A stretch of DNA of 25,301 nucleotides from a virus. The notes under the pieces were generated by a model, which searched no databases, was not told where the DNA came from, and saw only the letters and a program-made list of their open reading frames with translations. Shown here piece by piece: positions 3,539 through 11,505 of this stretch (position 1 is its first letter; each line of letters begins with the position of its first letter). The stretch lies in UHGV virus genome UHGV-0254345; one strand, 5' to 3'. The translations under genes and the position numbers were made by a program.

Positions 3539-3961
3539 ATGGCTGAAACACAGATGAGCATGTTTGGTGACAGCGAACAGCTGCACGCGCTGATTGACCG
3601 TCTGGATGATATTCCTGATGATGAGCTGAAAAAGAACTGGCCCGGCACGCTGCGTGACCTGGTTGATGTGATCAGTGCTGAACTGCACCGTCAGGGGATT
3701 GAATCTGCTCAGGCGGGAATGCTTGCCCGTAAGGTTGCGGCCGCACAGGCCGGGTACATGGGCGGGCGTGGTTATTATCTCCCGGTCGGTGAATCCCTTT
3801 TCACCGAACTGCGCAATAATGAGATTTTTTCCCGCTGGAGCCAGGGTGAAAAAATTGAAACCCTGCGCCGCCATTACCAGATGTCAGAGACGCAGATTTA
3901 CTCCGTTATCCGCAACCAGCGTCGCCTGCATCAGGAGCGCACGCAGCCCCGGCTTTTCTGA
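3539..3961 (+). CDS. Mor/C-family transcriptional activator of late genes
   Basis: 140 aa; GGAGG 8 nt upstream of ATG; Mor/C-like C-terminal region; located directly upstream of the endolysin as C is in Mu. Confidence 0.75.
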   Translation: MAETQMSMFGDSEQLHALIDRLDDIPDDELKKNWPGTLRDLVDVISAELHRQGIESAQAGMLARKVAAAQAGYMGGRGYYLPVGESLFTELRNNEIFSRWSQGEKIETLRRHYQMSETQIYSVIRNQRRLHQERTQPRLF

Positions 3962-5436: not shown

Positions 5437-5728
5437 AGATTATGTTGTCCCGATCCTGTCGGCAACGGCCACGGCCGGGGGGATCTTCATGGCGCTGATG
5501 CGCAAAACCTTCGTCCCCCGCGAGGCCTTTGAAAAACTCTCCGATCGGGTTGAGCGGGTGGAGAGCCGGATTTCCGGCCTGCCCACGCAGCAGGAGGTGA
5601 ACAGACTCAATATCGAAATCACCACCCTGCGCGGTGAGCTAAAGGCCACCAACGCCACCCTGAAATCCGTCTCTCATCAGAACGAACTGCTGCTGGAGCA
5701 GGCTGTAAGGAAAAAACACAATGAGTGA
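5417..5728 (+). CDS. small membrane protein (N-terminal TM + coiled coil), Mu gp25-like position
   Basis: GGAGG about 7 nt upstream of ATG; TM segment VVPILSATATAGGIFMALM followed by a heptad-like charged region. Confidence 0.5.
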   Translation: MWVSIVKDYVVPILSATATAGGIFMALMRKTFVPREAFEKLSDRVERVESRISGLPTQQEVNRLNIEITTLRGELKATNATLKSVSHQNELLLEQAVRKKHNE

Positions 5729-6011
5729 TTTCATTACTGAAGATCAGCGTCTTGTCATTCTGCGGTCGCTGGCGGATTACAACGGCGAACTGGGCGAATC
5801 CGTGCTTCAGGACTGCCTGGATGATTACGGCCACCGCGTGTCCCGCGACACCGTTCACACCCACATTGCCTGGCTTGCTGAGCAGGGACTGGTGCGTAAG
5901 CGCACGCTTGTTAACGGTTATTTCATCGCTGAACTGACCGGCCGGGGTCAGGATGTGGCGGAAGGTCGTGCCACTGTTCCGGGTGTGAAGAAACCACGCG
6001 CAAGGGGGTAA
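5721..6011 (+). CDS. hypothetical protein (possible winged-helix), Mu gp26-like position
   Basis: AAGGA upstream of ATG; 96 aa; overlaps upstream stop; ends 2 nt before TerS-like start. Confidence 0.5.
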   Translation: MSDFITEDQRLVILRSLADYNGELGESVLQDCLDDYGHRVSRDTVHTHIAWLAEQGLVRKRTLVNGYFIAELTGRGQDVAEGRATVPGVKKPRARG

Positions 6012-6013
6012 CG

Positions 6014-6595
6014 ATGGATAAGCCGACGCGTGGCCGTGTACGCAAGGTGGATTTGCTCCCCGACAGCATCCGTAAGCCGCTGCTGGAAATGCTGCGTGAA
6101 AAACGCCTGACGCAGGTCCAGATCCGCGAGGAAATCAACCGTCTGATCCGTGAGGCAGGCCTGCCGGAAGAGCAGCAGCTTTCACCGGCGGCCATCAGCC
6201 GGGAAGCCTCCCGTAATGAGCTGATTGCCCGTAATCTGCGTGATTTACGCGAGCAGACAAAAGCCATGATGGCCGAACTGGGGGATAAGCCGACCGGTGA
6301 AACCACGGCACTGATTCTGGAGATGTCCCGTGCCCTGATGTACCGCCGTCTGCGTGCCGCCACCGAATCCCTGAACAGCGACAGCGATGTGGATATGCGC
6401 CTTATTAAGGACATCCTCCTGTCGGCACAGCGTGCGGAAAGTGCCGCCGAGCGCAGCATTAAGCGTGAAAAAGAAATCCGGGCCGCATTTGCTGAAGAGA
6501 TGGCGAACGCCGTCACCGACGAGTTGCGCGGCGTGGATGGCATGAGCGAGCAGATAGAATTCCGTATCAGGCAGATGCTGCTTGGTAAGGCGTAG
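6014..6595 (+). CDS. terminase small subunit-like protein (Mu gp27 / DUF3486-like)
   Basis: AAGGGGG SD; 193 aa, basic N-terminus (RGRVRKVDLLPDSIRK) consistent with a DNA-binding small terminase; immediately upstream of large terminase. Confidence 0.6.
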   Translation: MDKPTRGRVRKVDLLPDSIRKPLLEMLREKRLTQVQIREEINRLIREAGLPEEQQLSPAAISREASRNELIARNLRDLREQTKAMMAELGDKPTGETTALILEMSRALMYRRLRAATESLNSDSDVDMRLIKDILLSAQRAESAAERSIKREKEIRAAFAEEMANAVTDELRGVDGMSEQIEFRIRQMLLGKA

Positions 6596-6605
6596 GAGGT
6601 GAATC

Positions 6606-6854
6606 GTGGTAACAGATAACCGCTCACTGATGAGCAGTGCTCATCAGAAGGCATTCAGTCTTGCAACACAGTTACCTCCTGAAACCATAAAAGCGTGTCG
6701 TGAGTTGACTGAACTCAGCATTGCCGGGGAAATATCCCTGGAACAACTGCATTCGCTGCTGGCAGGGGCTGTCACTGATGAGTTGAGTGGCGTGGACGTG
6801 ATGACTGAAGAGCTTGAGTTCCGAATCAAAAGCATTCTGACAGGTAAAGCCTGA
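6606..6854 (+). CDS. small protein carrying a duplicated TerS C-terminal tail (function unknown)
   Basis: GTG start with AGGAGG 6 nt upstream; stop overlaps TerL ATG; last 28 aa AVTDELSGVDVMTEELEFRIKSILTGKA match the TerS C-terminus AVTDELRGVDGMSEQIEFRIRQMLLGKA at 19/28 positions. Confidence 0.6.
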   Translation: MVTDNRSLMSSAHQKAFSLATQLPPETIKACRELTELSIAGEISLEQLHSLLAGAVTDELSGVDVMTEELEFRIKSILTGKA

Positions 6855-8518
6855 TGAACAAAGCCAAAGAAAAGTCTCCTTCACTGATACAAATGACACC
6901 TCCCCGCAAAATTGATCTGTCCGGTGAAAAAGCCCTGCTGGGCGTGGATGTGCCGGACAGCCTTGATTTGCCCGGTGATATGCCGGTGTTTCTGGATTAT
7001 CAGGCCCGCTGGTTTGCAGATGAAAGTCAGGTCTGCATCGCGGAGAAATCCCGACGCACCGGGCTTACCTGGGCGGAAGCCGGGCGTAACGTCATTACCG
7101 CCGCAAAGCCTAAGCGTCGTGGTGGCCGTAATGTGTTTTATGTGGGGTCAAAACAGGAGATGGCGCTGGAATATATTTCTGCCTGCGCGCTGTTCTCCCG
7201 TGCCTTTAACCAGCTGGCAGATGCTGATGTGTATGAGCAGACATTCTGGGATCGGGATAAAAAAGAAGAAATTCTGACCTACATGATCCGCTTTCCGAAC
7301 AGTGGATTCAAAATTCAGGCATTGTCTTCCCGTCCGTCAAACCTGCGCGGTCTTCAGGGGGATGTGGTGATTGATGAAGCCGCGTTCCACGAGTCACTGG
7401 ATGAGCTTCTCAAGGCGGCAATGGCGCTTACCATGTGGGGCGCACGCGTGCGCATTATTTCCACGCATAACGGCGTCGATAATCTGTTTAATCAGTACAT
7501 TCAGGAAGCCCGCGAGGGGCGCAAGGATTACAGCGTCCACCGCATAACCCTGGATGATGCCATTGCGGACGGGCTGTACCGTCGTATCTGTTACGTCACC
7601 GATCAGGAATGGTCACCGGAAAGCGAGCAGAAATGGCGTGATGATCTCTACAAAAACGCCCCGACCCGTGAGGATGCCGACGAGGAATACGGCTGTATCC
7701 CGAAAAAATCCGGCGGTGCCTATATTCCTCACGCGCTTATTGAAATGGCGATGATTCGTGACATCCCGATTCTGACGTTTGAAGCCCCGGACGACTTCAT
7801 CAGCCGTGCCGCATGGCTGCGTGAATCGGAAGTTTTAACCTGGTGTGAAGAACATTTAAAACCGCTTACAGAGAAATTAAATCCCCGTTCCCGCTTCAGC
7901 TTCGGGGAAGACTTTGCCCGCACCGGTGACCTGTCCTGCTTTGTGCTGCTGGAAATCACCGAACTCCTGGCAAAGCGCGAGGTGTTTCGCGTGGAGCTGC
8001 GCAACCTGCCGTATGCCCAGCAGGAACAGGTGATGATGTACATCCTGACCCGCGTTCCGGCGCTGGTCGGTGCGGCGTTCGACGCCACCGGTAACGGCGG
8101 CTATCTGGCAGAGGCCGCACTGCTGGCCTTTGGCCCGGACATCATCGACTGCGTGATGTTGTCGCCGAAGTGGTACGGCGAGTGGATGCCAAAACTGAAA
8201 GCCGAGTTTGAAGATCAGAATATCCTCGTCGCCCGCCATCAGACCACGCTTGATGATTTGCGCCATGTGAAGGTGGTGAATGGTATCCCGCAAATCGACA
8301 AGGGGCGCACGAAGGACCAGAACGCAACGGCTGCGAACGCCCGCCGCCATGGTGATTTTGCCGTGGCACTCTGTATGGCAAACCGGGCGTCATACATGGA
8401 GGGTTTCATCCTGGATGAATCAGCCTGTCAGGCGCTACCGGAGCGGTCGCGGGCAATGGAGGGCGGTTATCGTGATGACGATGAGGCATATCATGAATTT
8501 GATCGGGGGGGCTGGTAG
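6854..8518 (+). CDS. terminase large subunit (Mu gp28-like)
   Basis: 554 aa, between TerS-like and portal genes; stop overlaps portal start. Confidence 0.8.
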   Translation: MNKAKEKSPSLIQMTPPRKIDLSGEKALLGVDVPDSLDLPGDMPVFLDYQARWFADESQVCIAEKSRRTGLTWAEAGRNVITAAKPKRRGGRNVFYVGSKQEMALEYISACALFSRAFNQLADADVYEQTFWDRDKKEEILTYMIRFPNSGFKIQALSSRPSNLRGLQGDVVIDEAAFHESLDELLKAAMALTMWGARVRIISTHNGVDNLFNQYIQEAREGRKDYSVHRITLDDAIADGLYRRICYVTDQEWSPESEQKWRDDLYKNAPTREDADEEYGCIPKKSGGAYIPHALIEMAMIRDIPILTFEAPDDFISRAAWLRESEVLTWCEEHLKPLTEKLNPRSRFSFGEDFARTGDLSCFVLLEITELLAKREVFRVELRNLPYAQQEQVMMYILTRVPALVGAAFDATGNGGYLAEAALLAFGPDIIDCVMLSPKWYGEWMPKLKAEFEDQNILVARHQTTLDDLRHVKVVNGIPQIDKGRTKDQNATAANARRHGDFAVALCMANRASYMEGFILDESACQALPERSRAMEGGYRDDDEAYHEFDRGGW

Positions 8519-10107
8519 TGGGACGCATCATTGATACTGACGGAAAACCTTTCTCCTTTGACCCGGAGATGCAGAGTGCCGCGCTGGATATTCCGCAGAT
8601 TGCCAGCCGTTATATTGAACATCCGGCTTCGGGTATCACCCCGAACCGGGCGGCGCAGTGCCTTCGCGGGGCTGAACGTGGCGATCTGATTGCCCAGTCC
8701 GATCTGGCCGCTGATATTGAAGAAAAGGACACCCACCTTTTTGCGGAGCTGGGCAAGCGACGTCTTGCCATTCAGGGGGTGCCATGGAGTATTGAGCCGC
8801 CACCGAACGCCAGCGCGAATGAGAAAAAGGACGCGGAAATGCTCGACGAATATCTGCATTCCGCAGACTGGTTTGATGCCATGCTGTTTGACGCCACGGA
8901 TGCCATCCTGAAGGGCTATTCCTGCATGGAAATTGAGCACGGGATGCTCGGTAAAATGCACATCATCCGCGCCATCCGCTGGCGTGACAGCGGGCATTTC
9001 TGCCTTAACCCGGATGATTTGAGCGAACTGCGGCTGCGTGACGGCAGCCATTCCGGGGTGGCGTTTCAGCCCTTTGGCTGGATAGTGCATCAGTCGCGTT
9101 CACGCACCGGTTACGGTGGTGCAACCGGGCTTGTCCGGACGCTTATCTGGCCGTTCATTTTCAAAAACTATTCCGTGCGCGATCTGGCGGAATTTCTGGA
9201 GGTGTACGGCCTGCCGATGAAGGTCGGGAAATACCCGTCCGGGGCAACACCGGAGCAGAAAAGTGCCCTGATGCGGGCGGTGATGGATATCGGGCGACGT
9301 ACAGGCGGGATCATCCCGGCCGGGATGTCGCTGGAGTTTCAGGCGGCAGCGAACGGTCAGGCCGATCCGTTTGAAACCATGATTTCGTGGGGGGAGCGTT
9401 CCATCTCCAAAGCAATACTCGGCGGCACGCTGACCACGGAAGCCGGAGACAAAGGCGCGCGCTCACTGGGTGAGGTACATAACGAGGTGCGCCGGGAAAT
9501 CAGGGATTCTGATTTACGACAGCTGGCTGCAACCCTGAACCGCGATCTGGTGTATCCGCTGTACGCCCTGAACACCACGCACACTATTGATATCCGCCGT
9601 CTGCCACGTATCTGCTTCCAGACAAAAGAACCAGGTGATATCACCAAAATCACCAGTGCGGTGATGCAGCTCAGTACGGGGATGGATATTTCTGATCCCT
9701 GGATACGTGAGCAGACCGGTATTCCGCAGCCCACGCCCGGTGAAGCCATATTCCGTGTCCGTCAGAGTGGCAATGAACCGGCTCAGACCGACAGGGAAAC
9801 ACCACCGGAAAAACAGGAAAAAACAGAGCAGACGGCGCTGTCAGCCAGACTGCCGGAAGCGAAAAGCACGCCGCGTGATGAACTGGATGATATGGGGGAC
9901 GCGGTGCCTGCCCGCCGCTTACAGGAGGCCATCGACCCGGTACTGGAGCCGGTCATTGATGCCATCAGAACGCGGGGGCTGGCGGATGCGCTGGCAGACC
10001 TGCCTGCCCTTTATCGTGAAATGGATGATTCCCGCCTGATGACGCTGCTCAGTGATGCCATGTTTGCTGCGGAAATGAAGGGGATGCTGGATGGCTCAGG
10101 AGATTGA
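8518..10107 (+). CDS. portal protein (Mu gp29 / DUF935 family)
   Basis: GTG start overlapping TerL stop with G-rich SD upstream; 529 aa; position and length as Mu portal. Confidence 0.8.
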   Translation: MGRIIDTDGKPFSFDPEMQSAALDIPQIASRYIEHPASGITPNRAAQCLRGAERGDLIAQSDLAADIEEKDTHLFAELGKRRLAIQGVPWSIEPPPNASANEKKDAEMLDEYLHSADWFDAMLFDATDAILKGYSCMEIEHGMLGKMHIIRAIRWRDSGHFCLNPDDLSELRLRDGSHSGVAFQPFGWIVHQSRSRTGYGGATGLVRTLIWPFIFKNYSVRDLAEFLEVYGLPMKVGKYPSGATPEQKSALMRAVMDIGRRTGGIIPAGMSLEFQAAANGQADPFETMISWGERSISKAILGGTLTTEAGDKGARSLGEVHNEVRREIRDSDLRQLAATLNRDLVYPLYALNTTHTIDIRRLPRICFQTKEPGDITKITSAVMQLSTGMDISDPWIREQTGIPQPTPGEAIFRVRQSGNEPAQTDRETPPEKQEKTEQTALSARLPEAKSTPRDELDDMGDAVPARRLQEAIDPVLEPVIDAIRTRGLADALADLPALYREMDDSRLMTLLSDAMFAAEMKGMLDGSGD

Positions 10108-11422
10108 TTTAGGTTATGCCGCCACGCTTCCCTCAAAAGAGACGGTGGCATACTTCCGCGCCAAAGGGGCGCATATCAGCTGGAACTGGTTCGAAACAGC
10201 CGCGGATGTTCATGCCCGCTCATTCACGGCAGCAAAAACGGCACGGCTGGATGTGGTGACCACATTACAGGCCGAAGTGCAGCGGGCCATTGATGAGGGG
10301 ATTTCACAGAAAGAATTTATCCGCACGCTGACGCCACGCCTGCAAAAGCTGGGATGGTGGGGAAAGCAGATTGTGGTGGACAGCGACGGTAACGCGGAAG
10401 AAGTGCAGCTGGGCAGTCCCCGTCGTCTGGCGCTGATTTACAACGTGAACACCCGTGTGGCTTACAATGCCGGGCGTTACACGCAGATGATGAACAACAC
10501 GGACACGCATCCGTTCTGGCAGTATGTGGCGGTCATGGACAGCCGTACCCGCCCGTCGCATTCCGCCCTTAACGGTCTGGTATTCCGCTATGACGATCCG
10601 TTCTGGAAAACACACTACCCGCCCAATGGCTGGAACTGCCGCTGCCGTGTGCGGCCATTGTCTCAGGCCCGTCTGGATGCAATGGGGTTATCCGTTTCAT
10701 CCGGTGAGGATCATCTCTCCACCCGCAATGTTGAGGCTGGCGTGGATAAACAGACCGGAGAAGTCAGAGAAATGCCGGTGACCACATATTCAGATGGCAC
10801 CAGAACCATGACACCGGATGTGGGCTGGTCATATAACCCCGGCTCGGCAGCGTTCGGCACAGACCAGGCGCTGATCCGCAAACTGATCGAGGTGAAAAGC
10901 CCGGCGTTACGGGAAATGGTGGTTCAGGAGATGAACAACAGCCCGGAGCGGCAGCTGGCGTTCCGCATCTGGGCAAAAAACATCATGCAGACCCGGCGAG
11001 GTGGTAACGATATCCGCACGCTGGGCTTTATGACTGAAAGCATTGCGCAGGCAGTGGAAAGCCGGACGGGAACGCCACCGGCCCGCCTGCTGGCGATGAG
11101 CGGTAAAAATGTGCTCCATGCGGACAGTGTGAAACATCAGAATGACGGCATCGCTCTGACGCCGGAGGACTTCGGGCGCTTACCGGCAATGCTGGCAAGG
11201 CCAAAAGCGGTACTGTGGGACAAACGGCACAACAATCTGATGTATATCGTGGAAAATCAGGATGGCAGTGTGCAGATTGCCGTTAATGCACCGTACAGTC
11301 TGAAACGTCAGCCCGACAAACTGGATGTGATTGTGAATGCTTACCGGGTTATCAATATGGATAAGCTGAAATCGGATATCCGGGGCGGAATGCTTGAGGT
11401 GCTGGAAGGACAAATTGATTAA
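10091..11422 (+). CDS. head morphogenesis protein (Mu F-like)
   Basis: 443 aa; overlaps portal 3' end; Mu gene order portal-F-G-I-T. Confidence 0.8.
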   Translation: MAQEIDLGYAATLPSKETVAYFRAKGAHISWNWFETAADVHARSFTAAKTARLDVVTTLQAEVQRAIDEGISQKEFIRTLTPRLQKLGWWGKQIVVDSDGNAEEVQLGSPRRLALIYNVNTRVAYNAGRYTQMMNNTDTHPFWQYVAVMDSRTRPSHSALNGLVFRYDDPFWKTHYPPNGWNCRCRVRPLSQARLDAMGLSVSSGEDHLSTRNVEAGVDKQTGEVREMPVTTYSDGTRTMTPDVGWSYNPGSAAFGTDQALIRKLIEVKSPALREMVVQEMNNSPERQLAFRIWAKNIMQTRRGGNDIRTLGFMTESIAQAVESRTGTPPARLLAMSGKNVLHADSVKHQNDGIALTPEDFGRLPAMLARPKAVLWDKRHNNLMYIVENQDGSVQIAVNAPYSLKRQPDKLDVIVNAYRVINMDKLKSDIRGGMLEVLEGQID

Positions 11423-11505
11423 CGGTCAGTGGCGGGGGTCGAACCCGCATACATGATCCACCCGGAGGCAGGCACCGACTTTACCAGTTAAGCGTACACT
11501 GACCG
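11423..11505 (-). other. tRNA-like structured element (acceptor-like stem plus canonical T-arm; no anticodon arm found)
   Basis: On the minus strand: 9-bp perfect stem (11423-11431 with 11497-11505) stacked on a 5-bp stem GCGGG/CCCGC closing a 7-nt loop TTCGACC (T-loop-like); a D-arm-like hairpin with GG loop is possible; hand search found no 5-bp anticodon stem. Confidence 0.3.

What the first reader, a model, noticed from the sequence alone, without database searches (positions are those of the whole stretch)
6510..6854. Small gene between TerS and TerL carries a diverged copy of the TerS C-terminal tail
The 82-aa ORF at 6606-6854 has one of the strongest RBSs in the window (AGGAGG) and is translationally coupled to TerL. 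Its last 28 residues match the last 28 residues of the TerS-like protein at 19 of 28 positions and end in the same GKA-stop, with the nucleotide sequences (6510-6595 versus 6768-6854) clearly related but diverged. C-terminal tails of small terminase subunits commonly mediate contact with the large subunit, so this looks like a second protein able to dock on TerL with a different N-terminal domain: a possible packaging modulator, alternative specificity subunit or adaptor. I do not recall such a gene in canonical Mu.
Basis: partly seen in the sequence, partly recalled or inferred. Interest (0 to 1): 0.7.

Follow-up and report, generated by a model that had tools for sequence, protein, structure and literature searches.

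The report
Chimeric small gene between terminase genes
In about one in ten prophages of one E. coli Mu-like family, a small late gene between the two DNA-packaging (terminase) genes fuses a mini-domain related to the start of the phage's MuF head protein to a diverged second copy of the small terminase's C-terminal tail; whether that tail still docks on the packaging motor is untested.

Summary
The last 31 residues of the 82-aa ORF (6606-6854) match the last 31 of the gp27-type small terminase (6014-6595) at 20 positions (BLASTP E=1e-12), and the ORF's stop overlaps the TerL start (TGATG).

The ORF is a chimera:
- Residues 1-48 belong to an orphan family I call "X". These are 55-73 aa proteins encoded directly after gp27 in some enterobacterial Mu-like prophages, and none of them has a tail.
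- The X family is in turn homologous to the N-terminal segment (about aa 30-85) of MuF-type minor head proteins.
- Residues 51-82 are a copy of gp27 residues 162-193.

The gene lies in a lower-GC mosaic block (about 6540-6905) that also replaces the distal gp27 tail and the first 17 codons of TerL. It occurs in 25 of 5426 complete E. coli genomes. About 200 further genomes carry the same prophage type without it.

The ORF evolves faster than its neighbours (dN/dS 0.3-0.6, against 0 for gp27 and about 0.1 for TerL). Its tail has changed four residues that are invariant in a nine-sequence gp27 alignment spanning E. coli, Salmonella, Mu and a Vibrio phage.

My best reading is a translated accessory late gene made by recombination at a junction hot spot. 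The tail copy keeps the native restart context for TerL. Docking on TerL remains possible but unproven.

The parts
6014..6595 (+). gp27-type small terminase (TerS), 193 aa
   Evidence: PF11985 at 116 bits and phrog_426 'terminase small subunit' at E=9e-55. RefSeq calls it 'phage protein Gp27 family protein', WP_000360580.1.
6497..6595 (+). TerS C-terminal tail (aa 162-193 plus stop): end of a long helix, an RGVDGMS loop, then a short terminal helix
   Evidence: Conserved from E. coli to Mu and a Vibrio phage. AF2 secondary structure gives helix 128-171, loop 172-178, helix 179-189, but at low confidence (pLDDT 55).
6594..6600 (+). Shine-Dalgarno AGGAGGT for ORF82, overlapping the gp27 TAG stop
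   Evidence: The same stop-plus-SD arrangement precedes tail-less X genes and Mu gp28.
6606..6854 (+). ORF82, a chimeric 82-aa late gene (RefSeq WP_000255659.1 'hypothetical protein'; PHROG 30922, unknown function)
   Evidence: The ORF is intact in 8 DNA alleles; the start codon alternates between GTG and ATG.
6606..6755 (+). X domain (aa 1-50): predicted three-helix unit related to the small proteins found after gp27 in other Mu-like prophages and, through them, to the N-terminal segment of MuF proteins
   Evidence: hhalign against tail-less X proteins gives 95% probability, E=1.8e-8. An X-only HMM hits 6615-6761 at E=2e-8. A library-wide X profile hits the ORF82 type at E=1.5e-4. AF2 predicts helices 5-22, 25-39 and 45-60, with block-mean pLDDT 70-88 over residues 1-50.
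6756..6854 (+). Second, diverged copy of the TerS tail (aa 51-82 plus stop)
   Evidence: It is nearest to the tail of the ORF82-less prophage form (72/93 nt) rather than to the co-resident gp27 tail (60/93 nt). GC3 is 0.52 against 0.79 for the gp27 tail.
6852..6856 (+). TGATG stop/start overlap coupling ORF82 to TerL
   Evidence: In the short form the identical overlap joins gp27 to TerL.
6854..8518 (+). Large terminase (TerL), 554 aa; codons 1-17 (6854-6904) belong to the swapped block
   Evidence: phrog_2 at E=5.5e-43. The N-terminal 10-25 residues before the conserved PRKIDL motif are hypervariable across Mu-like loci.
6540..6905 (+). Mosaic block that distinguishes the long form from the short form: distal 13 aa of the gp27 tail, ORF82, and TerL codons 1-17
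   Evidence: Multiple alignment of long and short forms. The block from ORF82 to TerL codon 17 has GC 0.41-0.50, against 0.55-0.59 for the flanking genes.
10091..11422 (+). MuF-type minor head protein (gp30-like), whose residues ~31-81 (10181-10333) are the paralogous X-like segment
   Evidence: PF04233 at E=5e-30 and MuF_C. hhalign of the X family against residues 31-76 gives E=2e-5. The X HMM hits 10211-10333 at E=0.028. phrog_220 is shared.

Best explanation
ORF82 is a translated accessory late gene created by domain shuffling at the TerS/TerL junction, which is a recombination hot spot in Mu-like phages.

What the protein is made of:
- Its first ~50 residues are an 'X' mini-domain. X proteins are stand-alone relatives of the N-terminal helical segment of MuF minor head proteins. 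In other enterobacterial Mu-like prophages they are encoded immediately after gp27 and carry no tail.
- Its last ~32 residues are a copy of the resident TerS tail.

How it most likely arose (inferred): an X cassette, arriving with a donor's distal TerS tail, stop codon and Shine-Dalgarno site, recombined in frame into the 3' end of a gp27 gene whose stop overlaps the TerL start. The old tail-coding sequence and its TGATG restart site stayed in place. Ribosomes translating ORF82 from its own strong SD therefore still terminate on the TerL start codon, as ribosomes translating gp27 do in the short form. The whole block was later moved between prophages by homologous recombination.

Consequence: I read the tail copy mainly as a tolerated remnant that preserves TerL coupling in cis. 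At the protein level it is under relaxed constraint.

Function (inferred): the activity lies in the X domain. By analogy with MuF/SPP1 gp7, it probably contacts a head or portal component.

Shown here: chimeric anatomy, distribution, mosaic block, substitution rates. Inferred: order of events, the coupling role, the partner of X.
For: - Chimera: aa 1-48 match tail-less X proteins (E=1.8e-8, E=2e-8, E=1.5e-4 library-wide). Residues 51-82 match gp27 162-193 (E=3.7e-11).
- X to MuF link: 18 of the 35 sequences scanned (5 ORF82-type plus 30 X proteins) hit phrog_220. The X profile finds about 45 proteins of 346-575 aa matched at residues ~27-97. Of ten hits scanned against Pfam, nine carry PF04233; two of these are portal-MuF fusions.
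- Hot spot: among 133 Mu-like loci fetched with the gp27 profile, inserts of 40-630 nt lie between gp27 and TerL. There are 14 tail-less X genes, all starting 9-15 nt after the gp27 stop. A rare third junction type has a 9-codon mini-ORF.
- A second tail copy occurs only in the E. coli long form.
- Block transfer: the long and short forms are near-identical in the flanking sequence and diverge only across ~6540-6905. The block has lower GC. The ORF82 tail is closest to the short-form tail.
- The restart context is identical (GGTAAAGCCTGATGA) in the short form after gp27 and in the long form after ORF82.
- Relaxed constraint: dN/dS is 0.3-0.6 for ORF82, against 0 for gp27 (0 nonsynonymous against up to 26 synonymous changes) and about 0.1 for TerL. 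Four residues invariant in the gp27 alignment are changed.
- Translation is likely: a near-ideal SD, GTG/ATG start variants, and an intact frame in 8 alleles.
- There is no promoter, terminator or Rfam match of its own.
- The gene is dispensable: it is present in 25 genomes, against about 200 that carry the same prophage type without it.
Against: - The tail is not decaying freely. Against the short-form gp27 tail, dN/dS is about 0.28 overall, or roughly 0.5 on the ORF82 branch if the two branches are equal. Among ORF82 alleles the tail changes no faster than the X part. The helix-loop-helix pattern is retained. Some protein-level selection on the tail is therefore likely, which fits a docking role.
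- The counts are small: 9-21 substitutions in about 30 codons.
- Coupling can be kept without a tail, as the mini-ORF junction shows, so coupling alone does not require the tail sequence.
- The role of X and MuF N-terminal segments is not known experimentally.
Confidence: 0.5

Rival explanations
1. Functional terminase adaptor or modulator. The TerS-type tail docks ORF82 on the partner of the TerS tail, presumably TerL. This brings the MuF-like X domain to the packaging motor. There it could bridge to the portal or procapsid, or compete with TerS and so tune packaging initiation.
For: - Tail homology is strong and the helix-loop-helix pattern is retained.
- Tail dN/dS is below 1.
- The gene is co-translated with the terminase genes from a strong SD.
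- TerS C-termini bind TerL in lambda and P22 (PMC9611059).
- MuF/gp7 binds the portal in SPP1 (PMC6316719, PMC5576092).
- Small proteins that bind TerL or TerS and alter packaging exist: Gpi (PMC11417361) and Rpp (PMC6739421).
Against: - No binding evidence was obtainable here.
- Residues invariant in the gp27 alignment, in and next to the loop, are changed (R172S, G176V, S178T, L189T).
- The gene is absent from about 90% of sister prophages and from Mu.
- X homologues need no tail.
- The partner of the Mu gp27 tail is itself unknown, and there is no solved relative.
- The extreme TerL N-terminus is the TerS-binding site in P22. Here it is hypervariable while the tail is conserved.
Confidence: 0.3
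2. TerS-ring partner or poison subunit. The tail is an oligomerisation or TerS-TerS contact element, so ORF82 co-assembles with or caps gp27 oligomers. This would alter pac recognition rather than TerL binding.
For: In some phages the C-terminal TerS moiety is proposed to insert into another TerS oligomer, or to bind DNA (E217 and P22; PMC9611059). The tail continues a long predicted helix of gp27.
Against: This is purely analogical. The gp27 model has low confidence (pLDDT 55). The changed residues and the gene's dispensability argue against it as for the adaptor idea.
Confidence: 0.08
3. Non-functional relic. ORF82 is a recombination scar whose product has no role. The frame is kept open only because ribosomes must reach the TGATG.
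For: - dN/dS is high in the N-terminal part, 0.5-1.1 in some pairs.
- GC3 is low.
- The gene shows presence/absence polymorphism.
- Frameshifted or truncated variants exist in draft data: P0008-P0011.
Against: - The core residues 18-53 are nearly invariant across alleles that differ at synonymous sites.
- Overall dN/dS is below 1.
- The X family is conserved across genera at the same position. That is not expected for a functionless sequence.
Confidence: 0.1

Closest known systems
Mu gp27 / Phage_Mu_Gp27 (PF11985, DUF3486) small terminase
   Same: ORF82 residues 51-82 are homologous to gp27 residues 162-193. They have the same predicted helix-loop-helix, the same GKA end, and the same stop/start overlap with TerL as gp27 has in the short form.
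   Different: ORF82 has nothing corresponding to gp27 residues 1-161 (the HTH and long helices), and it makes no Pfam match. Four residues invariant in the gp27 alignment are changed. It evolves much faster.
Tail-less 'X' proteins of enterobacterial Mu-like prophages (hypothetical proteins, 55-73 aa; linked to PHROG 30922)
   Same: They share the N-terminal ~50 residues (motif L.SAH..AF..A ... CR ... I..G.S.E.), the position directly after the gp27 stop with the SD at the stop, and unknown function.
   Different: They end in a short variable C-terminus rather than a TerS tail. They occur in Salmonella, Citrobacter, Mixta and other E. coli prophages whose gp27 is only 57-75% identical.
MuF / SPP1 gp7 minor head proteins (PF04233)
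   Same: The X family matches the N-terminal helical segment (about aa 30-85) that precedes and overlaps the start of the MuF domain. It also matches at the portal-MuF fusion boundary. Both are part of the packaging and head gene module.
   Different: ORF82 and X lack the MuF core and C-terminal domains. They lie upstream of TerL rather than downstream of the portal gene. ORF82 itself matches MuF only transitively, through the X family.
Small proteins that bind terminase subunits (PLE Gpi binding TerL; PICI Rpp binding TerS; herpesvirus pUL33 as a third terminase subunit)
   Same: These are small helical proteins that could act on the packaging motor. This is the closest functional analogy if the tail docks.
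   Different: There is no sequence relationship. Gpi and Rpp are satellite-encoded antagonists. ORF82 is encoded by the phage itself, inside its terminase operon, and no binding has been shown.
Morons (accessory genes inserted between conserved phage genes)
   Same: ORF82 shows presence/absence polymorphism between near-identical phages, has a different base composition, and sits at a gene boundary.
   Different: ORF82 has no promoter or terminator of its own. It is translationally linked to both neighbours and so is expressed as a late gene.

Membership tests
Phage_Mu_Gp27 small terminase (PF11985) | Whole-protein match to PF11985 above the gathering score | tested here: not met
   ORF82 makes no Pfam match at E<=0.1 or E<=10. 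gp27 itself scores 116 bits against a cut-off of 28.
Phage_Mu_Gp27 small terminase (PF11985) | N-terminal HTH-like region and central long helices (gp27 aa 1-161) | tested here: not met
   BLASTP and hhalign align only ORF82 51-82 with gp27 162-193. In register, ORF82 1-54 against gp27 112-165 gives 4/54 identities (my count from the sequences). No DNA repeat extends beyond the tail.
Phage_Mu_Gp27 small terminase (PF11985) | Conserved C-terminal tail | tested here: met
   Tail HMM at 41.7 bits, E=1e-10; hhalign 97%.
Phage_Mu_Gp27 small terminase (PF11985) | Tail residues invariant in the nine-sequence gp27 alignment (E. coli, Salmonella, Mu, Vibrio phage): ELRGxDGxSE and LLGKA | tested here: not met
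   ORF82 has ELS[GS]VDVMTE and LTGKA, i.e. R172S, G176V, S178T and L189T, in all alleles.
X family (small proteins encoded after gp27) | Profile match to tail-less members | tested here: met
   hhalign E=1.8e-8; HMM E=2e-8; E=1.5e-4 against 1.84 billion proteins.
X family (small proteins encoded after gp27) | Gene starts 9-15 nt after the gp27 stop, with the SD at the stop codon | tested here: met
   Junction sequences.
X family (small proteins encoded after gp27) | Single-domain protein of 55-73 aa with a short variable C-terminus | tested here: not met
   ORF82 is 82 aa. Its last 32 residues are the TerS tail. None of 46 X clusters or 14 tail-less X loci has a tail.
MuF minor head protein (PF04233) | MuF core domain | tested here: not met
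   ORF82 makes no PF04233 match, and only one X member does, at E=0.14. The similarity is confined to the N-terminal segment.
MuF minor head protein (PF04233) | Gene immediately downstream of the portal gene | tested here: not met
   ORF82 lies between TerS and TerL. The true MuF gene is at 10091-11422, after the portal gene at 8518-10107.
Moron | Own promoter and terminator, allowing expression from the prophage | tested here: not met
   There are no sigma-70-like promoters and no convincing + strand terminator in 5600-7200.
Moron | Presence/absence between closely related phages, with deviant composition | tested here: met
   25 genomes carry it and about 200 carry the prophage type without it. 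GC is 0.48-0.50 against 0.55-0.59 for the neighbours.
Terminase-binding regulators (Gpi, Rpp, pUL33 type) | Physical binding to TerL or TerS with an effect on packaging | not testable with these tools
   Only monomer prediction was available. ORF82 gave pLDDT 73 and gp27 gave 55.

The most novel reading that the evidence does not exclude
ORF82 is a genuine third component of the Mu-like packaging machinery. It would be a two-handed adaptor, with a TerS-derived tail that holds TerL and a MuF-derived mini-domain that holds the portal or procapsid (or displaces MuF). In that case tail-less X proteins would be a previously unrecognised class of packaging or head-assembly factors encoded between TerS and TerL.
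Probability: 0.12. Interest if true: 0.75.

Novelty: new variant of a known kind. Interest (0 to 1): 0.4.

Why it matters
- It is a clean natural example of a phage protein built from two recognisable pieces of other packaging and head proteins. The intermediate forms (tail-less X, short form, mini-ORF form) still exist in sister prophages, so the route of domain shuffling at a translationally coupled gene junction can be reconstructed.
- It defines a small, unannotated family of stand-alone relatives of the MuF N-terminal segment in the terminase operon. This gives a handle on what that segment of MuF does.
- It supplies a natural mutant TerS tail, detached from TerS and altered at residues invariant in the gp27 alignment. 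This could be used to map which residues of the Mu-type TerS tail contact their partner. No structure or interaction data for that tail turned up in the PDB sequence search or the paper searches run here.
- The practical impact is modest unless docking is shown.

Tried and rejected
- **Simple tandem duplication of the gp27 3' end.** Rejected. In register, ORF82 1-54 against gp27 112-165 gives 4/54 identities. No DNA repeat extends beyond the tail. The period is 259 nt. The tail copy is closer to the short-form tail than to its neighbour and has a different GC3.
- **ORF82 as a mini-TerS whose N-terminus is a diverged gp27 HTH.** I suspected this by eye from LPPETIK against LPDSIRK. Rejected: hhalign aligns only the tail.
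- **ORF82 N-terminus recently copied from the resident MuF gene.** Rejected: a direct hhalign gives E=0.77. The link is only through the older X family.
- **A second decayed tail in the 87-aa ORF of L084.** It has the same-sized gap between gp27 and TerL (258-259 nt by my two estimates) and ends ...LRGAE...VGKTS. It is not significant with the tail HMM.
- **Fold searches of the ORF82 model.** Both BFVD and PDB searches returned only generic helical bundles with E>0.1.
- **Database searches that found nothing useful.** PDB sequence searches, PADLOC and NCBIfam, Rfam, the plasmid collection, and promoter/terminator scans.
- **gp27 structure prediction.** Confidence was too low (pLDDT 55) to use beyond secondary structure.
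- **Neutrality tests on the tail.** Inconclusive: there are too few substitutions.
Full report
**1. The observation**

The window is part of a Mu-like prophage of E. coli. The stretch 5700-7100 is 100% identical to several complete genomes, for example strain AST198. RefSeq annotation there gives the gene order DUF2730 (gp25-like), VpaChn25_0724 family (gp26-like), Gp27 family protein, a 249-nt hypothetical gene, TerL, portal (DUF935), and MuF-like minor head protein.

- gp27-type TerS at 6014-6595 (PF11985, 116 bits; phrog_426 'terminase small subunit').
- An 82-aa ORF at 6606-6854.
- TerL at 6854-8518.

AGGAGG at 6594-6599 overlaps the gp27 TAG stop and lies 6 nt before the GTG start. It is one of only five AGGAGG sites on the + strand. 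The ORF82 stop and the TerL start overlap as TGATG.

The tail similarity is far beyond chance:
- BLASTP gives 20/31 identities, E=1e-12.
- A tail HMM built from 29 other gp27 tails gives E=1e-10.
- hhalign gives 97% probability, E=3.7e-11.

The copies are 259 nt apart (6509-6595 and 6768-6854) and about 65% identical in DNA.

**2. The ORF is a chimera**

Nothing upstream of the tail resembles gp27. I surveyed 133 Mu-like loci fetched with a gp27 profile from species-representative genomes and IMG/VR. The gp27/TerL junction turned out to be a hot spot.
- Most phages, including Mu itself, join the two genes directly.
- Many carry inserts of 40-630 nt.
- In 14 of these loci, a 56-69 aa ORF starts 9-15 nt after the gp27 stop. 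These come from Citrobacter braakii, Apirhabdus and IMG/VR contigs. The ORFs share the motif L.SAH..AF..A...CR...I..G.S.E with the first 50 residues of ORF82.

Three tests support the homology between these 'X' proteins and the ORF82 N-terminus:
- hhalign of ORF82 alleles against tail-less X proteins: 95% probability, E=1.8e-8 over residues 1-48.
- An HMM built only from tail-less X proteins hits window 6615-6761 at E=2e-8.
- The same kind of profile, searched against 1.84 billion representative proteins, recovers an ORF82-type protein at E=1.5e-4.

The X family comprises 46 clusters from Salmonella, Citrobacter, E. coli and Mixta. All are 51-73 aa, all are named 'hypothetical', and none has a Pfam domain. 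None has a tail. A second tail copy exists only in the E. coli long form. ORF82 is therefore X(1-~50) fused to gp27(162-193).

**3. What X is**

- 18 of the 35 sequences scanned (5 ORF82-type plus 30 X proteins) match phrog_220 ('minor head protein and DNA pilot'). The matches fall at the profile positions that correspond to residues ~30-87 of the window's own MuF-like protein.
- The X profile finds about 45 proteins of 346-575 aa, matched at residues ~27-97, with E from 6.5e-7 to 1e-3 library-wide.
- Of ten hits scanned against Pfam, nine carry PF04233 (Phage_Mu_F), which starts about 25 residues into the matched stretch. Two of these are portal-MuF fusions in which the stretch sits where the MuF part begins.
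- hhalign of the X family against the window's MuF residues 31-76 gives E=2e-5.

X proteins are thus stand-alone relatives of the N-terminal helical segment of MuF proteins. ORF82 itself shows this only transitively.

The function of that segment is not known. SPP1 gp7, a MuF protein, binds the portal and is thereby targeted into the procapsid. Toxin domains are found fused to the C-terminus of MuF-type proteins (PMC6316719, PMC5576092). From this I infer that the N-terminal MuF part does the targeting.

AF2 models ORF82 as three helices (5-22, 25-39, 45-60; block-mean pLDDT 70-88 over residues 1-50), then a low-confidence loop and a terminal helix (68-79). The third helix runs through the fusion point. 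The loop-helix mirrors the predicted end of gp27 (helix to 171, loop 172-178, helix 179-189), but the gp27 model has low confidence, pLDDT 55.

**4. Population picture**

- The ORF82-specific DNA (6596-6767) occurs in 25 of 5426 complete E. coli genomes, always on chromosomes, with up to three places per genome.
- The surrounding prophage type occurs in 231 genomes, most of them in a 'short form' exactly one repeat period shorter.
- In the short form, gp27 (also 193 aa) ends ...QLESRIKGILLGKA and its stop overlaps the TerL ATG as TGATG. This is the same sequence context that follows ORF82 in the long form.

Alignment shows that the two forms are near-identical in the flanking sequence and diverge only across ~6540-6905. 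That block comprises the last 13 residues of gp27 (IEFRIRQMLLGKA in the long form), ORF82, and the first 17 codons of TerL. From ORF82 through TerL codon 17, the block has lower GC (0.41-0.50) than the flanking genes (0.55-0.59). The ORF82 tail has GC3 0.52 against 0.79 for the gp27 tail.

The ORF82 tail is closer to the short-form gp27 tail (72/93 nt, 22/30 aa) than to the gp27 tail next to it (60/93, 20/30).

The left junction (stop, SD, start) is of the type seen before X genes and before Mu gp28. The right junction is of the short-form type.

A third, rare junction occurs in IMG/VR loci L068 and L072 and in one complete genome, strain CI5. It keeps the long-form gp27 tail, the SD and the first four ORF82 codons. 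It then ends as a 9-codon mini-ORF (MATDWFSYE) whose stop overlaps a TerL start with yet another N-terminal extension.

In all three E. coli junction types the TerL start overlaps an upstream stop codon. In Mu-type junctions TerL instead follows a Shine-Dalgarno placed just after the gp27 stop.

**5. Selection**

Among five long-form prophages:
- gp27 has 0 nonsynonymous against 5-26 synonymous differences.
- TerL has dN/dS of about 0.02-0.14.
- ORF82 has dN/dS of 0.12-0.63, mostly 0.3-0.6.

The frame is intact in 8 DNA alleles, and the start codon varies only between GTG and ATG. Residues 18-53 are almost invariant. The first 17 residues exist in two versions.

The tail differs from the nine aligned gp27 tails (E. 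coli, Salmonella, Mu, Vibrio phage) at four otherwise invariant positions: R172S, G176V, S178T and L189T.

Against the short-form tail, dS is 0.68 and dN is 0.19. If the two branches are equal and gp27 is strongly constrained, the ORF82 branch has omega near 0.5. With about 21 substitutions in 30 codons, neutrality can neither be excluded nor established.

**6. Interpretation**

Shown here:
- ORF82 is a translated-looking, dispensable, faster-evolving chimeric late gene.
- Its two halves derive from an X-type MuF-N-like gene and from a TerS tail.
- It travels as part of a lower-GC block that includes the start of TerL.

Inferred: an X cassette with a donor's distal tail, stop and SD recombined in frame into a gp27 3' end of the TGATG type. 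The resident tail-coding sequence and the TerL restart site stayed downstream. Keeping the frame open through that sequence keeps terminating ribosomes on the TerL start.

I take this as the main reason the tail copy exists (confidence 0.5). The X domain would provide whatever activity the protein has.

In its favour, the tail has not decayed freely, TerS C-termini bind TerL in lambda and P22 (PMC9611059), and small terminase-binding proteins such as Gpi and Rpp are known (PMC11417361, PMC6739421). Against it are the altered tail residues, the dispensability of the gene, the tail-less homologues, and the lack of any knowledge of what the Mu gp27 tail binds.

One further point bears on the analogy. 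The extreme TerL N-terminus is the P22 binding site for TerS. In these phages it is hypervariable while the tail is conserved, so the partner surface, if it is TerL, must lie elsewhere.

Two minor rivals remain: co-assembly with TerS oligomers (0.08) and a functionless relic (0.1).

**7. Novelty**

The gene is annotated only as a hypothetical protein (RefSeq) and as PHROG 30922, unknown function. None of the paper searches run here (on Mu gp27, TerS C-terminal tails, MuF/gp7, the Sp18 Mu-like prophage and PICI Rpp) turned up a description of the X family, its relation to MuF, or the TerS-tail fusion; these searches were not aimed at the X family itself.

It is a new variant of known kinds of thing: accessory genes at phage gene junctions, and domain shuffling among virion-module proteins. 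It is not a new category. Interest is moderate. It would rise sharply if the protein were shown to bridge TerL and the portal.

Noticed in passing
L093 3754-3951, L097 3762-3965, L113 3747-3944, L111 3749-3940, L117 ~3600-3784: A second small ORF family ('Y', ~63-67 aa, motif ..ELALELYP..AEALYLLMQMVDGP..AG..I; phrog_21398, unknown function, E=5e-26) follows X, or stands alone, between gp27 and TerL in several Mu-like loci. It is part of 360-630 nt inserts.
   Followed up: partly
L068 3582-3650, L072 2476-2545; E. coli CI5 NZ_CP011018.1 4294303-4294408: A third junction type. It has the long-form gp27 tail, the ORF82 SD and its first four codons. A 9-codon mini-ORF (MATDWFSYE) then has its stop overlapping a TerL start with a different 25-residue N-terminal extension. 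It is found in only 1 of 5426 complete E. coli genomes.
   Followed up: partly
window 6854-6904 and the equivalent positions in about 40 loci: The TerL N-terminus is hypervariable (10-25 residues, many unrelated versions) up to a sharply conserved PRK(I)(D/N)L..E...LGV motif. Recombination boundaries cluster at that motif.
   Followed up: partly
L084 3587-3853: An 87-aa X-like ORF in a Salmonella/Citrobacter-type prophage fills a gap of nearly the same size (258-259 nt by my two estimates). It ends ...AERLRGAELYLFVRYFVGKTS, with its stop overlapping the TerL ATG. This is faintly reminiscent of a decayed tail, but it is not significant with the tail HMM.
   Followed up: partly
protein P0013 (291 aa, Logan assembly): An apparent gp26-gp27 fusion. 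The gp26-like protein reads through into gp27, giving 96 aa plus a 2-residue linker plus 193 aa. It is either a real stop-codon loss or an assembly or gene-calling artefact.
   Followed up: no
proteins P0205 (939 aa), P0223 (790 aa), P0187 (444 aa): P0205 and P0223 are portal-MuF fusion proteins. P0205 and the MuF protein P0187 also carry C-terminal PBECR nuclease-like domains. They turned up among the hits of the X profile.
   Followed up: no
window ~11424-11503, - strand (L002 11725-11804): RefSeq/PGAP annotates a 'tRNA-OTHER' in the gap after the MuF gene in strain AST198. ARAGORN finds no tRNA or tmRNA anywhere in the window.
   Followed up: partly
window 5721-6011: The gp26-like protein upstream of TerS (VpaChn25_0724 family, phrog_436) gives weak winged-helix/ArsR-type matches. 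The Vibrio phage homologue is annotated as an ArsR-family regulator. It may be a DNA-binding partner in the packaging operon.
   Followed up: no
window 5923-6654, - strand: A 243-aa ORF runs antisense to the whole of gp27. It is rich in S, R and L and is most likely a non-coding shadow of the GC-rich sense frame.
   Followed up: no
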